Positions 1 to 6,443 of a stretch of 8,897 bases of DNA are shown here, piece by piece. How positions within the stretch are numbered: the stretch's first letter is position 1; every line of letters starts with the position of its first letter. The notes beneath the pieces are model-generated. The model searched no databases. It was not told where the DNA came from and was given only the letters and a program-made list of their open reading frames with translations. The position numbers and the translations under genes are program-made. Source of the DNA: a virus (lineage: Duplodnaviria; Heunggongvirae; Uroviricota; Caudoviricetes). Where the stretch lies: IMG/VR virus record IMGVR_UViG_2671180852_000010; one strand, written 5' to 3'.

Positions 1-46
1 TAAAAAAAGAACAAATGGTAGTGTCCGCTATTGCCAGTACACCTCA
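1..46 (+). mobile_element. Right terminus of an IS3-family insertion sequence whose body lies upstream of the window; bases 1-3 correspond to the orfB stop codon
   Basis: Bases 1-46 are identical to 5138-5183, which directly follow the transposase OrfB stop (TAA 5138-5140) of the internal IS copy. The segment ends in ...CCTCA, matching the 5'-TG...CA-3' ends typical of IS3-family elements. The exact end is uncertain by a few bp. Confidence 0.45.
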
Positions 47-245
47 TCCATCACCGAAAAAAATTGGCTTTTACACCATTGGCGATAAAAGCATTTACCT
101 GTATGACCTACGCCGCATGGATGAAATCATGGAGGCTCTTGATAATCGTTCGTCGATGGATTGGTGTGTTGCTGTTCATGATATGAATGCAGGGTTTGAT
201 GAAAAGATTTTGTTCCCCTCATCAGTTGAAAGCACTGCGGGTTAA
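47..245 (+). pseudogene. 3' fragment of an unidentified gene, apparently interrupted by the IS insertion (about 66 codons ending ...FPSSVESTAG)
   Basis: The frame is open from inside the IS terminus through to TAA at 243-245. The ATG at 15 reported in the ORF track lies inside the presumed IS terminal sequence, so the 76-aa ORF is probably chimeric. No family recognised. Confidence 0.3.
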
Positions 246-255
246 GGAGTAACAC

Positions 256-423
256 ATGACCACTATTACCAAAGAACGTATTGAATTGTTCATTAAAAAC
301 CCGCTTGAAAACGGGCTTACCCGTGGTGAACAAATGGAACTGGCACGGATTGCGCTGGCATCGCTGGAAGCAGAGCCGGTTGTGTTCTGGTTTGAAAAAT
401 ATCAAGAAGGGGCTACGGCATGA
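256..423 (+). CDS. Hypothetical 55-aa protein ([12 protein letters not shown]...), short paralog of the N-terminal half of the next ORF
   Basis: ATG at 256 preceded by AAGGAG (244-249). The stop TGA 421-423 overlaps the next start ATG 420-422 (ATGA). Shares the MTT(I/F)T(K/R)E start, the IAL(A/V)SL(E/A)AEP motif and FEKYQEG versus HEYKPVG with ORF 420-764. It falls below the ORF-track length cutoff. Confidence 0.5.
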
Positions 424-764
424 CGACTTTTACCAGAGAGCAGTTAATAGCTCACGCAGAGGAGACTATTGAAGCACAGAGACTGTGCATACCGGGCACA
501 ATCGACCATGACATCATCCGCACATATAAGATGGATATTGCTGTTCTGGAAATCGCACTGGTATCGCTGGCAGCAGAGCCAGCCGGTAAATTGCATGAAT
601 ACAAACCAGTGGGATATCAGCGTCTGGTCGATGAGTTAACCATGCTGGTAAAGCAGTTAACCTGGCAACTGAGGAAAGCGAAGCCAGACTGCAAATTACC
701 GGATAAGGCGATGAGTTATCTGGAGCGGAACGGACTGATAAGCGTGGAGGATATTTTACGATGA
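420..764 (+). CDS. Hypothetical 114-aa protein ([15 protein letters not shown]...), family not recognised
   Basis: Translationally coupled to both neighbours by ATGA overlaps at 420-423 and 761-764. Paralogous to the preceding 55-aa ORF. An identical copy lies at 5557-5901. Confidence 0.6.
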
Positions 765-844
765 CCTGGCCTGAAGCATTAACAACGGTAGGAATTGCGA
801 TGGCGGTGGCGCTGGTGGTGTATTCGATTTGCCGCTGGGGATAA
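761..844 (+). CDS. 27-aa hydrophobic mini-protein ([27 protein letters not shown]), predicted single transmembrane helix
   Basis: ATG 761 overlaps the upstream stop (ATGA); TAA at 842-844. The hydrophobic core is flanked by W/R residues. It is short enough that the call is tentative. Confidence 0.3.
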
Positions 845-1055
845 AAACGGTTTGCGGGAAAAGGAGAGTTAAGTAGAATTGCAGCGGGTGCTTGAGGCTA
901 TCTGTCTCAGGCATGAACACCAAAAGGCAGATAGAGAAAAGCCCCAGTTAACATTACGCGTCCGGCAAGACGCTTAACATTAATCTGAGGCTCAATCTAT
1001 GAACGGCAAATCTAGGTTAGCCTCTTACGTGCCGAAAGGCAAGGAGAAGCAGGCT

Positions 1056-1211
1056 ATGAAGCAGCAAAAGGCGATGTTAATCGCCCTGATCGTCATCTGT
1101 TTAACCGTCATAGTGACGGCACTGGTAACGAGGAAAGACCTCTGCGAGGTACGAATTCGAACCGGCCAGACGGAGGTCGCTGTCTTCACAGCTTACGAAC
1201 CTGAGGAGTAA
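1056..1211 (+). CDS. hokD: Hok/Gef-family type I toxin, 51 aa (MKQQKAMLIALIVICLTVIVTALVTRKDLCEVRIRTGQTEVAVFTAYEPEE)
   Basis: The translation matches the Hok/Gef family signature (single transmembrane helix, TRKDLCEV motif, C-terminal periplasmic tail) and matches my recollection of E. coli K-12 HokD. AAGGAG at 1041-1046 lies 9 nt before the ATG. The downstream order rem, ydfU, Q fits the Qin prophage context. The ORF track extends this frame upstream to ATG 999 (70 aa). Confidence 0.85.
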   Translation: MKQQKAMLIALIVICLTVIVTALVTRKDLCEVRIRTGQTEVAVFTAYEPEE

Positions 1212-1281
1212 GAGACCAGGCGGGGGAGAAATCCCTCGCCACCTCTGATGGGTCAGGCATCCTCAATGCACCCACACTTAA

Positions 1282-1306
1282 CCCGCTTCGGCGGGTTTTT
1301 GTTTTT
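1282..1306 (+). terminator. Rho-independent terminator-like hairpin downstream of hok
   Basis: Stem CCCGC (1282-1286), loop TTCG, stem GCGGG (1291-1295), followed by TTTTTGTTTTT. Confidence 0.6.
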
Positions 1307-1319
1307 ATTTTCAACGCGT

Positions 1320-1349
1320 TTGAAGTTTTAGATGGTGCCGGAATAGAAT
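1320..1349 (+). promoter_or_regulatory. Candidate sigma70 promoter upstream of the rem-ydfU-rusA-Q gene string
   Basis: TTGAAG (1320-1325), 18-nt spacer, TAGAAT (1344-1349). Both hexamers are retained at 6457-6486 in module 2 even though the surrounding sequence has diverged. Confidence 0.3.
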
Positions 1350-3228: not shown

Positions 3229-4286
3229 AACTGGAAGATTTACCGAAATACTACTCCCCAAAATCCCCCGGCCTGACTGATGCATCGGCCTCAACGTCGA
3301 AAGATGCGCTGAGTATCACTGATGTGATGGCCGCGCAGGGCATGACACAGAATCGGGCTGAGATGGGGGTTTCTGCGTTCCTTGGGAAAATGGGCATTAG
3401 TATGAATGACAGAGAGCGGGCAACAGAATTGCTGACAGAATATGCACTCAGTCGGTGTGATCGCGTGGCGGCGTTAAGAAAACTCCCGGCAGAAATAAAA
3501 CCGGCAGTGATGCGTATTATGGCTTCGTATGCGTTTGAAGATTATGCCCGTAGCGCGGCGAGCAAAAAACAGTGCCCCTGCTGTCACGGAAAAAAATTTA
3601 TTGAAAGCGAGGTTTTTACAAACAAGATCCAGTATCCGGATGGTAAGCCGCCGGTATGGGCAAAGTGTACGAAAGGTGTGTATCCGTCTTACTGGGAAGA
3701 ATGGAAAAAAGTCAGGGAGGTGGTAAAAGTTGCCTGTCCGGAGTGTGGCGGAAAGGGTGAGGTTTCCACCGCCTGTAAGGATTGCCGTGGGCGTGGTGTC
3801 GCCATTCATCGTGAAGAGTCGGTAAAACGTGGTATGCCTGTTATCAGAGACTGCCAGCGTTGTGGTGGTCGTGGCTATGAAAGACTACCATCAACGGAGG
3901 CATTTAATGCTATATGCGAGGTGACAAACCAGATAACACGCGCGTCATGGGAAAAAACAGTTAAGAAATTTTATGATGCGCTGGTGACCCGGTTTGATAT
4001 TGAAGAAGCATGGGCTGAGCGGCAGTTAAAAAAGGTAACTAGGTATGAAAATCAACTTTCGATCAGTGAAGGCGCTTCCCGATTATCTCTTCCTGAAGGC
4101 ACTTTAGGACAATGGGTTACCGCCGCAAGAAAAGGGCTCAATACACCAGGCTCCCGCACAGTGGCTGAGCTGGAATCTGAAGTTATGCAACTGCGTAAGG
4201 CTTTAAATGAAGCACGACTTGAGCGAGATATATTAAAAAAAGCAACAGCGTATTTTGCACAGGAGTCGCTGAAAAATACGCGTTAA
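3225..4286 (+). CDS. Chimeric ORF: Q-type late antiterminator (about aa 1-274) joined in frame to the C-terminal part of an IS3-family OrfA (from about aa 275)
   Basis: The N-terminal 270 aa or so are about 95% identical to the partial Q' at 8593-8897 and carry four CxxC pairs. From about nt 4047 the translation (ENQLSISEGASRLSLPEGTLGQWV...ERDILKKATAYFAQESLKNTR) is a typical IS3-family OrfA helix-turn-helix and leucine-zipper C-terminus that lacks its own N-terminus. Confidence 0.7.
   Translation: MKLEDLPKYYSPKSPGLTDASASTSKDALSITDVMAAQGMTQNRAEMGVSAFLGKMGISMNDRERATELLTEYALSRCDRVAALRKLPAEIKPAVMRIMASYAFEDYARSAASKKQCPCCHGKKFIESEVFTNKIQYPDGKPPVWAKCTKGVYPSYWEEWKKVREVVKVACPECGGKGEVSTACKDCRGRGVAIHREESVKRGMPVIRDCQRCGGRGYERLPSTEAFNAICEVTNQITRASWEKTVKKFYDALVTRFDIEEAWAERQLKKVTRYENQLSISEGASRLSLPEGTLGQWVTAARKGLNTPGSRTVAELESEVMQLRKALNEARLERDILKKATAYFAQESLKNTR
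4235..4241 (+). other. Candidate programmed -1 ribosomal frameshift heptamer A AAA AAA (followed by G) for OrfAB fusion synthesis
   Basis: Heptamer in the OrfA zero frame (TTA AAA AAA GCA). The -1 frame is open from here into OrfB (KKSNSVFCTGVAEKYALIEQWRQQFPIEAMCQVFGVSRSGYY...). A 9-bp stem-loop begins 6 nt downstream (4248-4256 pairing with 4273-4281). Confidence 0.5.
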
Positions 4287-4321
4287 TCGAACAATGGCGA
4301 CAACAATTTCCCATTGAAGCG

Positions 4322-5140
4322 ATGTGTCAGGTATTTGGTGTATCCAGGAGCGGTTATTACAACTGGGTACAGCATGAACCCTCAGACAGAAAACAAAGTG
4401 ATGAGCGGCTAAAACTGGAGATTAAGGTGGCACATATCCGCACTCGCGAAACATATGGAACCCGGCGGCTCCAGACGGAGCTGGCAGAGAATGGCATCAT
4501 CGTTGGTCGTGACCGACTGGCACGTCTTCGTAAGGAGCTAAGGCTACGCTGTAAGCAGAAACGCAAGTTCAGAGCGACTACGAACTCGAACCACAATCTG
4601 CCAGTTGCGCCAAATCTGCTGAACCAGACGTTCGCTCCTACAGCACCAAATCAGGTCTGGGTGGCGGACCTGACGTATGTTGCCACACAGGAGGGATGGT
4701 TGTACCTCGCTGGCATCAAAGATGTTTATACGTGCGAAATTGTCGGCTACGCCATGGGAGAGCGCATGACAAAAGAGCTGACAGGTAAAGCCCTGTTTAT
4801 GGCGCTCAGGAGCCAGCGCCCACCTGCCGGGCTAATCCACCACTCTGATCGAGGTTCACAGTACTGCGCATACGATTACCGGGTCATACAGGAGCAGTCT
4901 GGTCTGAAAACATCAATGTCGCGTAAAGGTAACTGTTACGACAACGCTCCGATGGAAAGCTTCTGGGGAACGCTGAAAAATGAGAGCCTGAGCCACTATC
5001 GTTTTAATAACCGGGATGAAGCCATCTCAGTAATACGGGAATACATTGAGATTTTCTACAATCGTCAGCGTCGTCACTCTCGTCTGGGGAATATCTCCCC
5101 GGCAGCCTTCAGGGAAAAATATCATCAGATGGCTGCTTAA
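4322..5140 (+). CDS. IS3-family transposase OrfB (DDE / rve integrase core); the coordinates are the standalone ORF, which in vivo is probably made as an OrfAB frameshift product
   Basis: Conserved IS3-family OrfB features: VWVADLTYV, HSDRGSQY, a KGNCYDNAPMESFWGTLK segment containing the catalytic E, and a C-terminal YNRQRRHSRLGNISP. It is in the -1 frame relative to OrfA. Confidence 0.85.
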   Translation: MCQVFGVSRSGYYNWVQHEPSDRKQSDERLKLEIKVAHIRTRETYGTRRLQTELAENGIIVGRDRLARLRKELRLRCKQKRKFRATTNSNHNLPVAPNLLNQTFAPTAPNQVWVADLTYVATQEGWLYLAGIKDVYTCEIVGYAMGERMTKELTGKALFMALRSQRPPAGLIHHSDRGSQYCAYDYRVIQEQSGLKTSMSRKGNCYDNAPMESFWGTLKNESLSHYRFNNRDEAISVIREYIEIFYNRQRRHSRLGNISPAAFREKYHQMAA

Positions 5141-5183
5141 AAAAAGAACAAATGGTAGTGTCCGCTATTGCCAGTACACCTCA

Positions 5184-5382
5184 TCCATCACCGAAAAAAA
5201 TTGGCTTTTACACCATTGGCGATAAAAGCATTTACCTGTATGACCTACGCCGCATGGATGAAATCATGGAGGCTCTTGATAATCGTTCGTCGATGGATTG
5301 GTGTGTTGCTGTTCATGATATGAATGCAGGGTTTGATGAAAAGATTTTGTTCCCCTCATCAGTTGAAAGCACTGCGGGTTAA
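5184..5382 (+). pseudogene. Second copy of the 3' fragment of the IS-interrupted gene (identical to 47-245)
   Basis: Identical sequence directly downstream of the IS right end. Confidence 0.3.
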
Positions 5383-5392
5383 GGAGTAACAC

Positions 5393-5560
5393 ATGACCAC
5401 TATTACCAAAGAACGTATTGAATTGTTCATTAAAAACCCGCTTGAAAACGGGCTTACCCGTGGTGAACAAATGGAACTGGCACGGATTGCGCTGGCATCG
5501 CTGGAAGCAGAGCCGGTTGTGTTCTGGTTTGAAAAATATCAAGAAGGGGCTACGGCATGA
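5393..5560 (+). CDS. Hypothetical 55-aa protein, identical copy of 256-423
   Basis: Identical sequence, with AAGGAG upstream and an ATGA overlap with the next gene. Confidence 0.5.
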
Positions 5561-5901
5561 CGACTTTTACCAGAGAGCAGTTAATAGCTCACGCAGAGGA
5601 GACTATTGAAGCACAGAGACTGTGCATACCGGGCACAATCGACCATGACATCATCCGCACATATAAGATGGATATTGCTGTTCTGGAAATCGCACTGGTA
5701 TCGCTGGCAGCAGAGCCAGCCGGTAAATTGCATGAATACAAACCAGTGGGATATCAGCGTCTGGTCGATGAGTTAACCATGCTGGTAAAGCAGTTAACCT
5801 GGCAACTGAGGAAAGCGAAGCCAGACTGCAAATTACCGGATAAGGCGATGAGTTATCTGGAGCGGAACGGACTGATAAGCGTGGAGGATATTTTACGATG
5901 A
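5557..5901 (+). CDS. Hypothetical 114-aa protein, identical copy of 420-764
   Basis: Identical translation in the ORF track. Confidence 0.6.
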
Positions 5902-5981
5902 CCTGGCCTGAAGCATTAACAACGGTAGGAATTGCGATGGCGGTGGCGCTGGTGGTGTATTCGATTTGCCGCTGGGGATAA
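5898..5981 (+). CDS. 27-aa hydrophobic mini-protein, identical copy of 761-844
   Basis: Identical sequence, with an ATGA overlap with the upstream gene. Confidence 0.3.
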
Positions 5982-6192
5982 AAACGGTTTGCGGGAAAAG
6001 GAGAGTTAAGTAGAATTGCAGCGGGTGCTTGAGGCTATCTGTCTCAGGCATGAACACCAAAAGGCAGATAGAGAAAAGCCCCAGTTAACATTACGCGTCC
6101 GGCAAGACGCTTAACATTAATCTGAGGCTCAATCTATGAACGGCAAATCTAGGTTAGCCTCTTACGTGCCGAAAGGCAAGGAGAAGCAGGCT

Positions 6193-6348
6193 ATGAAGCA
6201 GCAAAAGGCGATGTTAATCGCCCTGATCGTCATCTGTTTAACCGTCATAGTGACGGCACTGGTAACGAGGAAAGACCTCTGCGAGGTACGAATTCGAACC
6301 GGCCAGACGGAGGTCGCTGTCTTCACAGCTTACGAACCTGAGGAGTAA
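6193..6348 (+). CDS. hokD: Hok/Gef-family type I toxin, identical second copy
   Basis: Identical to 1056-1211. Confidence 0.85.
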   Translation: MKQQKAMLIALIVICLTVIVTALVTRKDLCEVRIRTGQTEVAVFTAYEPEE

Positions 6349-6418
6349 GAGACCCGGCGAGGGAGAAATCCCTCGCCACCTCTGATGTGGCAGGCATTCT
6401 CAACGCACCCGCACTTAA

Positions 6419-6443
6419 CCCGCTTCGGCGGGTTTTTGTTTTT
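6419..6443 (+). terminator. Rho-independent terminator-like hairpin downstream of hok copy 2
   Basis: Same CCCGC-TTCG-GCGGG stem-loop followed by a T-run, in sequence that has otherwise started to diverge between modules. Confidence 0.6.

What the first reader, a model, noticed from the sequence alone, without database searches (positions are those of the whole stretch)
845..1306. HokD-like type I toxin locus with structured leader and trailer but no recognisable relBE
The Hok ORF (1056-1211) looks intact and has a strong Shine-Dalgarno sequence. Its frame is open upstream to ATG 999, giving a 70-aa in-frame extension with GAGG 9 nt upstream; whether that ATG is used, and whether a separate mok-like ORF exists, is unresolved. 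The leader contains a 7-bp inverted repeat (898-904 pairing with 928-934). The trailer has a 9-bp stem with a GAAA tetraloop (1219-1240), perfect in module 2 and carrying one G-U-compatible change in module 1, followed by a terminator hairpin. Hok family mRNAs are regulated by 5'/3' fold-back structures and a cis-encoded Sok antisense RNA. Whether a Sok promoter exists on the minus strand determines whether this toxin is a live killer/exclusion module or a silenced relic.
Basis: partly seen in the sequence, partly recalled or inferred. Interest (0 to 1): 0.5.

Follow-up and report, generated by a model that had tools for sequence, protein, structure and literature searches.

The report
Complete prophage hok/mok/sok toxin-antitoxin locus
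This is an ordinary, already described kind of small "host-killing" toxin gene with its antisense-RNA antidote, carried by lambda-like prophages in most E. coli; all its known regulatory parts are present and intact here.

Summary
Window 845-1306, and its copy at 5982-6443, holds a complete hok/mok/sok type I toxin-antitoxin locus of the hokD/hokW prophage type.

- **Toxin:** the 51-aa protein is identical to E. coli K-12 HokD.
- **ATG 999:** this is the mok start. Phage 933W annotates the same 70-aa in-frame ORF as mokW.
- **Sok promoter:** one exists on the minus strand (TTGCCT-17-TAACCT, 1042->1014). It is identical to the sokW promoter whose mutation removed antitoxin activity in phage Sp5.
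- **Sok RNA:** the predicted 71-nt RNA (1007->937) matches SokW in 61 of 71 nt.
- **Leader and trailer:** both carry the classical elements tac, ucb, SD-mok, dcb, the 3' protective hairpin, fbi and a terminator. MFE folds reproduce the closed (tac-fbi) and open (tac-ucb) forms, and 42 related loci show compensatory changes.
- **relBE:** its absence is normal. The K-12 relBE-hokD arrangement is the derived minority form (1173 of 5426 E. coli genomes). The full leader occurs in 4285 of 5426.

The locus is therefore most likely live rather than a relic, although transcription, 3' processing and toxicity were not tested here. It is already known, and interest is low.

The parts
851..879 (+). hok mRNA promoter: weak -35-like TTTGCG/TTGCGG at 851-857 and -10 TAGAAT at 874-879
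   Evidence: The -10 aligns with TATGAT of R1 and TATAAT of hokC at a fixed distance from the conserved 5' GGGTGC. It is below the threshold of the consensus scan. Placement is by homology and is inferred.
886..1303 (+). Full-length mok-hok mRNA, about 418 nt. The +1 is inferred at G886 and the 3' end after the terminator T-run.
   Evidence: The Rfam model starts at 886. This aligns with R1 +1 GGCGCTTGAGG. MFE is -169 kcal/mol, z = -6.7.
886..897 (+). tac (translational activator element), GGGUGCUUGAGG
   Evidence: It pairs with fbi in the full-length fold and with ucb in the truncated fold. It is conserved in 42 loci.
898..934 (+).
   Evidence: Present in both folds. 91% of cells are paired, and 4 pairs carry double changes.
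939..945 (+). ucb (upstream complementary box, the anti-SD of mok), AAGCCCC
   Evidence: It pairs with the SD-mok region 986-992 in the full-length fold and with tac in the truncated fold. The tac-ucb helix is 98% paired but invariant. The neighbouring closed-form pair at columns 62/102 is A-U in 28 loci and G-C in 14, with none unpaired.
937..1007 (-). Predicted Sok antisense RNA, 71 nt: a 14-nt single-stranded 5' tail, a long hairpin and a U tail
   Evidence: Mapped from the sokW misc_RNA of 933W. It is 61/71 nt identical to SokW, and all differences lie in the first 10 nt. Fold is -29.9 kcal/mol, z = -4.9.
1014..1042 (-). Sok promoter: -35 TTGCCT (1042->1037), 17-nt spacer, -10 TAACCT (1019->1014)
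   Evidence: Window 1013-1058 is identical to 933W/Sp5. Takada et al. inactivated sokW by mutating exactly this -10, shown by primer YO-421 against the wild type. It aligns with R1 TTGCGC/TATCCT. It is below the threshold of the consensus scan.
987..990 (+). Shine-Dalgarno of mok (GAGG)
   Evidence: Nearly invariant in 42 loci. It sits at the same mRNA position as R1: 102-105 here, with GAGG starting at 105 in R1.
999..1211 (+). mok ORF, 70 codons, in frame with hok and sharing its stop codon
   Evidence: ORF list. Same architecture as the annotated mokW of 933W and mokC of K-12. The start is conserved 56-58 nt upstream of hok in 41/42 loci.
1019..1024 (+). dcb (downstream complementary box), AGCCUC, which pairs with SD-mok GAGGCU in the truncated form
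   Evidence: Truncated fold. The 5 core pairs are essentially invariant in 42 loci. It overlaps the Sok -10, as reported for R1.
1041..1046 (+). Shine-Dalgarno of hok (AAGGAG)
   Evidence: Direct reading. K-12 hokD homology begins here, at 1042.
1056..1211 (+). hok toxin ORF, 51 aa
   Evidence: Pfam PF01848 E=3e-23. Identical to K-12 HokD and 47/51 identical to HokW. PGAP names the homologues hokD.
1219..1240 (+). GC-rich 9-bp hairpin with GAAA loop: the likely 3' protective stem-loop of the processed (truncated) mRNA
   Evidence: It has the same position and GGCGGG...CCCGCC sequence as the last stem-loop of R1 Tr-hok, at mRNA 334-355 here and 343-360 in R1. 97% of cells are paired, and 4 pairs carry double changes. 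The R1 role is described in PMC9841398.
1261..1273 (+). fbi (fold-back inhibitory element), CCUCAAUGCACCC
   Evidence: It pairs with tac in the full-length fold. The helix is 91.5% paired. Pair 4 is U-A in 27 loci, C-G in 11 and U-G in 2. The differences between module 1 and module 2 are a G-C to G-U change and a change in the bulged base.
1280..1303 (+). Intrinsic terminator: 7-bp stem, TTCG loop and T-run
6023..6440 (+). Second copy of the whole locus (module 2). The leader, mok, hok and Sok region are 100% identical to copy 1, with 7 substitutions in the trailer.

Best explanation
The region is a complete hok/mok/sok type I toxin-antitoxin module of the prophage hokD/hokW type. It sits in the nin region (replication genes -> hok -> rem -> DUF968/ydfU -> rusA -> Q) of a lambdoid prophage and is present twice in the window.

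Proposed mechanism. Each step below is inferred from the sequence plus the R1 and Sp5 work.

1. A weak promoter (-10 at 874-879) makes a mok-hok mRNA of about 418 nt starting at G886.
2. In the full-length RNA the 5' tac (886-897) pairs with the 3' fbi (1261-1273), and ucb (939-945) sequesters the mok Shine-Dalgarno. The RNA is then neither translated nor bound by Sok.
3. Slow 3' exonucleolytic trimming removes the terminator and fbi, back to the GAAA-capped hairpin (1219-1240).
4. tac then pairs with ucb, and SD-mok becomes accessible through its alternative pairing with dcb.
5. Translation of mok from ATG 999 runs through the hok start region and allows Hok (1056-1211) to be made.
6. As long as the 71-nt antisense Sok (1007->937, promoter 1042->1014) is being made, its 5' tail pairs with the mok start region and the duplex is destroyed.
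7. When Sok synthesis stops, the stable processed mRNA is translated and Hok damages the inner membrane.

For the closely related hokW-sokW of Sp5, the trigger shown experimentally is prophage induction, and the effect is earlier lysis and about twice as many released phage.

What is shown here: the presence, integrity, homology and structural covariation of all the elements. What is inferred: transcription start sites, 3' processing, toxicity of this exact locus and its biological role.

I put about 0.95 on 'complete hok/mok/sok locus' and about 0.7 on 'functionally live'. The confidence value given for this explanation refers to the identity of the locus and the family mechanism.
For: - **Toxin:** Pfam HOK_GEF E=3e-23. 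It is identical to K-12 HokD.
- **Leader:** the Rfam hok-leader model RF01794 matches full length at 112 bits for both copies.
- **Annotation of a 93%-identical locus:** 933W annotates hokW, mokW (in frame, 70 aa) and sokW (71 nt antisense).
- **Sok:** the promoter is identical to the mutationally validated sokW promoter, and the Sok body is identical to SokW.
- **Alignment:** the locus aligns with R1 hok/sok, hokC/sokC and hokB/sokB. The -10, tac, ucb, SD-mok, mok ATG, dcb and SD-hok all fall in register.
- **Geometry:** positions on the mRNA are nearly the same as in R1. SD-mok is at 102 (R1 105), mok ATG at 114 (R1 116) and hok ATG at 171 (R1 174).
- **Folds:** MFE folds reproduce tac-fbi in the full-length RNA and tac-ucb in the truncated RNA.
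- **Covariation in 42 loci from Escherichia, Shigella, Photorhabdus, Pantoea, Erwinia, Kluyvera and Citrobacter:**
  - 82.6% of cells are paired, against 41-45% when partners are slid.
  - 27 pairs carry double changes.
  - None of 500 shuffles reached the observed values.
- **Experiments on relatives:**
  - hokW-sokW is a working TA system.
  - HokW is made on induction (PMC8621323).
  - HokD CDS overexpression lyses cells (bioRxiv 10.1101/2025.08.07.668861).
Against: - **Nothing about expression was measured here.**
- **Weak promoters:** both promoters are poor matches to the sigma-70 consensus and were missed by the consensus scan.
[quoted passage not shown] A complete sequence therefore does not guarantee activity.
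- **Uninformative helices:** the tac-ucb and SD-mok/dcb helices are invariant, so covariation says nothing for or against them.
- **Difference from R1:** fbi is followed by a separate intrinsic terminator hairpin. Trimming through it by 3' exonucleases is assumed.
- **Identical Sok genes:** the two copies would buffer each other, so loss of one copy should not trigger killing.
Confidence: 0.9

Rival explanations
1. Silenced relic. The locus is sequence-complete but physiologically inert, as reported for other chromosomal hok loci, and persists only by hitch-hiking on the prophage.
For: Chromosomal hokA, hokB and hokC did not give post-segregational killing or rifampicin activation (cited). The hok and Sok promoters are weak by consensus. 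The surrounding prophage is damaged: the Q gene is interrupted by an IS3-family element.
Against: - There is no inactivating change in any element relative to the functional hokW-sokW.
- The leader is retained at 90% identity or more in thousands of genomes, and some copies are 100% identical.
- Compensatory substitutions maintain the pairings.
- The differences between the two copies in the window are structure-neutral.
- The known ways in which K-12 hok loci were inactivated (an adjacent IS, or replacement of the leader) are absent here.
Confidence: 0.2
2. A hokD gene of the K-12 type: a leaderless third gene of a relBE(F) operon whose relBE has diverged beyond recognition.
For: The toxin is identical to K-12 HokD, and downstream synteny with Qin (rem, ydfU, Q) is the same.
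Against: There is no RelB or RelE similarity in the window. K-12 homology starts only at 1042. Upstream of that point the window carries the full hok leader, where K-12 has the 3' end of relE. The leader form is in 4285 genomes and the relE-hokD junction in 1173.
Confidence: 0.01
3. Chance ORF and chance hairpins in a phage intergenic region.
For: None beyond the small size of the features.
Against: Rfam E=1e-25 and Pfam E=3e-23. Fold z-scores are -6.7, -5.6 and -4.9. Conservation and covariation extend across genera.
Confidence: 0.01

Closest known systems
hokW-mokW-sokW of Stx2 phages 933W and Sp5 (Plunkett 1999 annotation; Takada et al. 2021, PMC8621323)
   Same: The DNA is about 93% identical over the locus. 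The 70-aa in-frame mok is the same. tac, ucb, the Sok-target hairpin, SD-mok, dcb, SD-hok and the Sok promoter are identical. The Sok body is identical in 61/71 nt, and Hok is identical in 47/51 residues.
   Different: - The last 7 residues of Hok differ: TAYEPEE here, VDYESEK in HokW.
- Mok codons 2-5 differ, and therefore so do the first 10 nt of Sok.
- The genomic position differs: the nin region between the replication genes and Q here, next to attR in 933W.
hokD (relF) of the E. coli K-12 Qin prophage
   Same: The toxin protein is identical. SD-hok, the 3' hairpin, fbi and the terminator are the same, and so are the downstream neighbours rem, ydfU and Q.
   Different: K-12 lacks everything upstream of window position 1042: the promoter, tac, ucb, mok and Sok. 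It has relBE there instead. The window holds the intact form.
hok/mok/sok (parB) of plasmid R1
   Same: The order and spacing of all the regulatory elements are the same. The two alternative mRNA folds are the same. The Sok promoter lies opposite dcb and SD-hok in both.
   Different: - Takada et al. report Hok and HokW as 44% identical.
- R1 mok is in the +1 frame (58 nt upstream). Here it is in frame (57 nt).
- In R1, fbi lies at the very 3' end of the RNA. Here a separate terminator hairpin follows it.
- The Sok-target hairpin carries an extra 16-18 nt insertion here.
- R1 is a plasmid-stability locus. This one is prophage-borne.
hokC(gef)/mokC/sokC and hokB/mokB/sokB of the E. coli chromosome
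   Same: The leader elements are conserved. In hokC, mok is in frame and shares the hok stop codon. In both loci, Sok overlaps the first codons of mok (9 nt in hokC, 11 nt in hokB).
   Different: These are core-chromosome loci. The K-12 hokC copy has an IS186 directly downstream. The sequences are more distant. mokB is not in frame with hokB: it ends 40 nt before the hokB stop codon.

Membership tests
[quoted passage not shown] | Small (about 50 aa) Hok/Gef-family membrane toxin ORF | tested here: met
   PF01848 E=3e-23, 81.6 bits against a cut-off of 22. Identical to HokD.
[quoted passage not shown] | Overlapping upstream mok reading frame with its own SD, translated through the hok initiation region | tested here: met
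   ORF 999-1211 with GAGG at 987-990. It aligns with the mok ATG of R1, hokC, hokB and 933W. The start is conserved in 41/42 loci. Translation itself was not tested.
[quoted passage not shown] | cis-encoded antisense Sok RNA (about 60-70 nt) with its own promoter, complementary to the mok translation-initiation region | tested here: met
   Met at sequence level only. The promoter is identical to the validated sokW promoter. The RNA is 61/71 nt identical to SokW. The fold has a 5' tail, a hairpin and a U tail. Transcription is not testable with these tools.
[quoted passage not shown] | 5'-3' fold-back (tac-fbi) that locks the full-length mRNA | tested here: met
   A 12-bp tac-fbi helix appears in the MFE fold. 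It is 91.5% paired in 42 loci, with U-A to C-G compensation.
[quoted passage not shown] | Alternative tac-ucb pairing and ucb/SD-mok/dcb exchange in the 3'-truncated mRNA | tested here: met
   The truncated fold shows tac-ucb and SD-mok/dcb. The full-length fold shows ucb/SD-mok. The Rfam consensus structure, which is the open form, is matched. The tac-ucb and dcb helices are invariant, so there is no covariation test for them.
[quoted passage not shown] | Slow 3' processing of the hok mRNA to a stable, translatable species ending at a protective stem-loop | not testable with these tools
   A hairpin homologous to the one in R1 is present at 1219-1240. Processing needs northern blotting or 3'-RACE.
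[quoted passage not shown] | Toxicity of Hok and neutralisation by Sok | not testable with these tools
   Shown for hokW-sokW and for HokD CDS overexpression, not for this locus.
relBE-hokD (relBEF) operon arrangement of K-12 Qin | hokD lies directly downstream of relE, without its own leader, mok or sok | tested here: not met
   No relB or relE in the window. The full leader is present where K-12 has relE.
Rfam RF01794 'sok antitoxin (CssrC)' | Score at or above the gathering threshold of 59 bits | tested here: met
   112.4 bits, model positions 1-157. The match is on the hok-sense strand, so it identifies the hok mRNA leader, not the Sok RNA itself.

The most novel reading that the evidence does not exclude
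The locus is placed so that prophage induction itself fires it. hok lies on the same strand as the antiterminated early operon. This is the pR operon in the nin-region loci (this window, PPompW, Tritos, mEp460, Qin). In 933W/Sp5 it is the pL/int operon read across attP after excision.

Read-through early transcription would collide head-on with the weak Sok promoter and shut it off by transcriptional interference. It would also deliver hok on long transcripts that lack a defined 5' tac end and 3' fbi end. This would explain the unexplained RecA-dependent loss of sokW RNA and the appearance of HokW before the endolysin, reported by Takada et al.

A second, smaller point concerns the Sok 5' tail, which corresponds to mok codons 2-6. 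It is a variability hotspot between invariant flanks, as expected if co-resident prophage copies diversify to avoid cross-neutralisation.
Probability: 0.25. Interest if true: 0.45.

Novelty: already known. Interest (0 to 1): 0.12.

Why it matters
It matters little as a discovery. This locus type was annotated in phage 933W in 1999, shown to be a working toxin-antitoxin system in Sp5 in 2021, and is present in about 80% of complete E. coli genomes.

Three points have practical value:
- RefSeq annotates only 'hokD' at these loci. The mok and sok genes and the mRNA elements go unannotated.
- The Rfam family named 'sok' matches the hok-sense strand, which invites strand mis-annotation.
- The intact form seen here shows that the textbook K-12 hokD (relF) is a truncated derivative.

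The co-orientation of hok with early phage transcription gives a cheap, testable idea for how induction triggers Hok.

Tried and rejected
- **Consensus scan of 780-1420.** It found only the hok terminator and an unrelated + strand promoter-like site at 1320-1349. It missed both the hok and Sok promoters, so they were placed by homology.
- **relBE.** tblastn of K-12 RelB and RelE against the window gave nothing significant. The relBEF reading was rejected.
- **Whole-window search against complete E. coli genomes.** No record reproduces the IS-linked two-module arrangement. The best places collapse both modules onto one prophage of about 6 kb at 95.5% identity. The source strain was not identified.
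- **Inverted-repeat search for the IS ends.** It was uninformative. The right end was placed by reading the sequence, and the left end appears truncated.
- **Register shift in the covariation count.** In alignment A3 the Photorhabdus clade has no bulge in fbi. Pairs 7-12 of tac-fbi are therefore shifted by one column and counted as 'unpaired' (10-12 cells each). Read by eye they pair continuously. I did not realign, so the 91.5% is an underestimate.
- **Excluded loci.** Ten loci were left out of A3: five relBE-type ones with no leader, plus truncated, N-containing, IS-disrupted or otherwise divergent ones.
- **Not used.** Structure prediction and the large protein searches were not run, because identity to HokD made them unnecessary.

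Full report
**What is there**

The window holds two co-directional copies of a lambdoid-prophage nin-region segment. The order is small phage ORFs, hok, a rem-like ORF, a DUF968/YdfU protein, RusA and antiterminator Q. The copies are separated by an IS3-family element.

Window 1-1217 is 100% identical to 5138-6354. After that the copies are 90-93% identical to about 1400 and then lose register. The finding (845-1306) therefore has an exact twin in its leader and coding part at 5982-6348, with seven substitutions in the trailer.

**Check of the observation**

All the stated features are present.

- The ORF 1056-1211 encodes 51 aa that match Pfam HOK_GEF (E=3e-23). The protein is identical to E. 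coli K-12 HokD.
- AAGGAG lies 9 nt before its ATG.
- The frame is open to ATG 999 (70 aa), with GAGG at 987-990.
- The 7-bp inverted repeat 898-904/928-934 is the core of a 10-bp stem that appears in both RNA folds.
- The 9-bp GAAA-capped stem 1219-1240 is real. It carries G-U in copy 1 and A-U in copy 2.
- A terminator follows at 1280-1297.
- No relB or relE is present.

These features are far beyond chance. The Rfam covariance model RF01794 matches full length at 112 bits (E=1e-25) in each copy. The 418-nt RNA folds 6.7 standard deviations better than shuffles.

**What it is**

The same DNA, at 80-99% identity, occurs in 4933 of 5426 complete E. coli genomes. It is usually present several times per genome and is named hokD by PGAP. 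It also occurs in 78 phage records, under names such as MokW, HokD toxin, gef and host killer protein.

Phage 933W annotates the three genes explicitly:
- hokW, 51 aa
- mokW, 70 aa, with the same stop codon, so it is in frame
- sokW, a 71-nt antisense RNA that overlaps the first 9 nt of mokW

Transferred to the window, this gives mok = 999-1211 and Sok = 1007->937 on the minus strand. K-12 hokC/mokC/sokC has the same layout.

Across 42 related loci, a start codon lies 56-58 nt upstream of the hok ATG in 41. It is in frame in 29 loci, in the +1 frame (as in R1) in 7, and opens a 19-codon ORF in 6. The position is conserved and the frame is not. [quoted passage not shown]

**Sok**

One does.

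- On the minus strand, TTGCCT (1042->1037), a 17-nt spacer and TAACCT (1019->1014) precede the predicted start at about 1007.
- Window 1013-1058 is identical to 933W.
- Takada et al. abolished sokW antitoxin activity by mutating exactly this -10. Their primer YO-421 carries CCGGCTCGCC where the wild type has TAGGTTAGCC. Their hokW probe YO-597 matches window 1015-1044 perfectly.
- The elements align with TTGCGC/TATCCT of R1.
- The predicted Sok folds into a 14-nt single-stranded 5' tail, a long hairpin and a U tail (-29.9 kcal/mol, z = -4.9).
- It differs from SokW only within its first 10 nt.

The simple consensus scan misses this promoter, and the hok promoter as well, because both are weak matches.

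**mRNA elements**

An alignment with R1 hok/sok, hokC, hokB and hokW puts these elements in register: the -10 (TAGAAT, 874-879), the conserved 5' end GGGUGCUUGAGG (tac, 886-897), ucb (AAGCCCC, 939-945), SD-mok, the mok ATG, dcb (AGCCUC, 1019-1024) and SD-hok.

Positions on the mRNA are almost the same as in R1. SD-mok is at 102 (R1 105), the mok ATG at 114 (R1 116) and the hok ATG at 171 (R1 174).

The folds match the closed and open forms described for R1.
- **Full-length RNA (886-1303), closed form:** tac pairs with CCUCAAUGCACCC (fbi, 1261-1273), and ucb pairs with the SD-mok region.
- **RNA cut at 1260, open form:** tac pairs with ucb, and SD-mok pairs with dcb.

The GAAA hairpin corresponds in position and sequence to the last stem-loop of R1 Tr-hok. 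That stem-loop protects the processed mRNA from 3' exonucleases.

**Covariation**

I collected 62 related loci from one-genome-per-species contigs and aligned 42 distinct full loci.

- With the closed-form structure, 82.6% of cells pair, against 41-45% when partners are slid by 1-3 columns.
- 27 pairs carry changes on both sides, and no shuffle reaches the observed values.
- In tac-fbi, position 4 is U-A in 27 loci, C-G in 11 and U-G in 2.
- A closed-form-specific pair next to ucb/SD-mok is A-U in 28 loci and G-C in 14, with none unpaired.
- The GAAA hairpin is 97% paired, with four doubly changed pairs.
- The tac-ucb and SD-mok/dcb helices are invariant, so they are untested by covariation.
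- The two copies in the window differ in fbi only by a G-C to G-U change and by the bulged base.

**relBE**

K-12 similarity starts at window 1042, just before SD-hok. Upstream of that point K-12 has the 3' end of relE. The relE-hokD junction is found in 1173 genomes. The full leader is found in 4285, and some copies are 100% identical to the leader in this window. The window therefore shows the intact, common form, and K-12 hokD is the truncated one.

**Function**

- The hokW-sokW pair is a working type I system. HokW is toxic, and sokW expressed from its own promoter neutralises it.
- Both RNAs are present in the lysogen.
- After mitomycin C, sokW RNA disappears and HokW appears in a RecA-dependent way, about 1 h before the endolysin. 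Deleting the locus halves phage release.
- Overexpressing the HokD CDS lyses cells.
- Against this, the chromosomal hokA, hokB and hokC loci did not give post-segregational killing. I therefore keep about 0.2 on 'inert'.

**Comparison and novelty**

The locus meets every sequence-testable defining feature of the hok/sok family. It fails the defining feature of the K-12 relBEF arrangement. It is an already known kind of element. hok enrichment in prophages has also been described.

**A lead not excluded**

In every nin-region example inspected, hok points the same way as cro, the replication genes and Q. In 933W it points the same way as int and the pL operon across attP. Antiterminated early transcription running against the Sok promoter could be the unexplained trigger seen by Takada et al. 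This is inference only.

Noticed in passing
window 886-1061 and 6023-6198, + strand: Rfam RF01794 is named 'sok antitoxin (CssrC)'. Its 157-nt model matches the hok-sense strand, contains the tac-ucb helix and ends at the hok ATG. It therefore describes the hok mRNA leader, not the roughly 70-nt antisense Sok. Taking the name at face value would put 'sok' on the wrong strand.
   Followed up: partly
window 1-1217 and 5138-6354; IS-related sequence about 4035-5178 and 1-41: The two modules are 100% identical for 1217 nt, starting at the stop codon of an IS3-family transposase orfB. That stop codon is TAA at window 1-3 and at 5138-5140, so the window starts inside an IS copy. The Q gene of module 1 (3225-) is fused in frame to the IS orfA HTH domain at about 4035, and no left inverted repeat was found. 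This looks like an IS-mediated rearrangement or gene conversion between two lambdoid prophages. No complete E. coli genome reproduces the arrangement.
   Followed up: partly
window 992-1016 (mok codons 1-6, which are the Sok 5' tail): Among 12 hokD/hokW-type loci this stretch is a local peak of variability between invariant flanks (975-991 and 1017-1025). The predicted Sok differs from SokW only in its first 10 nt. This may be a specificity determinant that limits cross-talk between co-resident copies. The sample is small.
   Followed up: partly
window 1194-1197 (Tyr47 codon UAC followed by G): UACGAA is invariant or nearly so in 42 loci, silent positions included. [quoted passage not shown]
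   Followed up: no
window 1320-1349, + strand: A promoter-like site (TTGAAG, 18 nt, TAGAAT) lies directly after the hok terminator and upstream of the rem-like ORF.
   Followed up: no
window 763-846, + strand: A short hydrophobic ORF ([27 protein letters not shown]) ends just before the hok promoter. A 105-nt hypothetical CDS is annotated at the same place in strain CAU16175 (L001 3861-3965).
   Followed up: no
L013, L019, L046, L057, L065, L072 (genome-contig hits): Near-identical E. coli-type hok loci appear on contigs labelled Veillonella, Xanthomonas, Acinetobacter, Haemophilus, Collinsella and others. Most of these contigs are very short, or are contigs of MAG bins. They are probably contamination or mis-binning rather than real hosts.
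   Followed up: no
RefSeq E. coli hits H1-H25, H76-H80: PGAP annotates only the 51-aa hokD CDS at these loci. The mok ORF and the Sok RNA are not annotated, although 933W and K-12 (hokC, hokB) annotate the equivalents.
   Followed up: no
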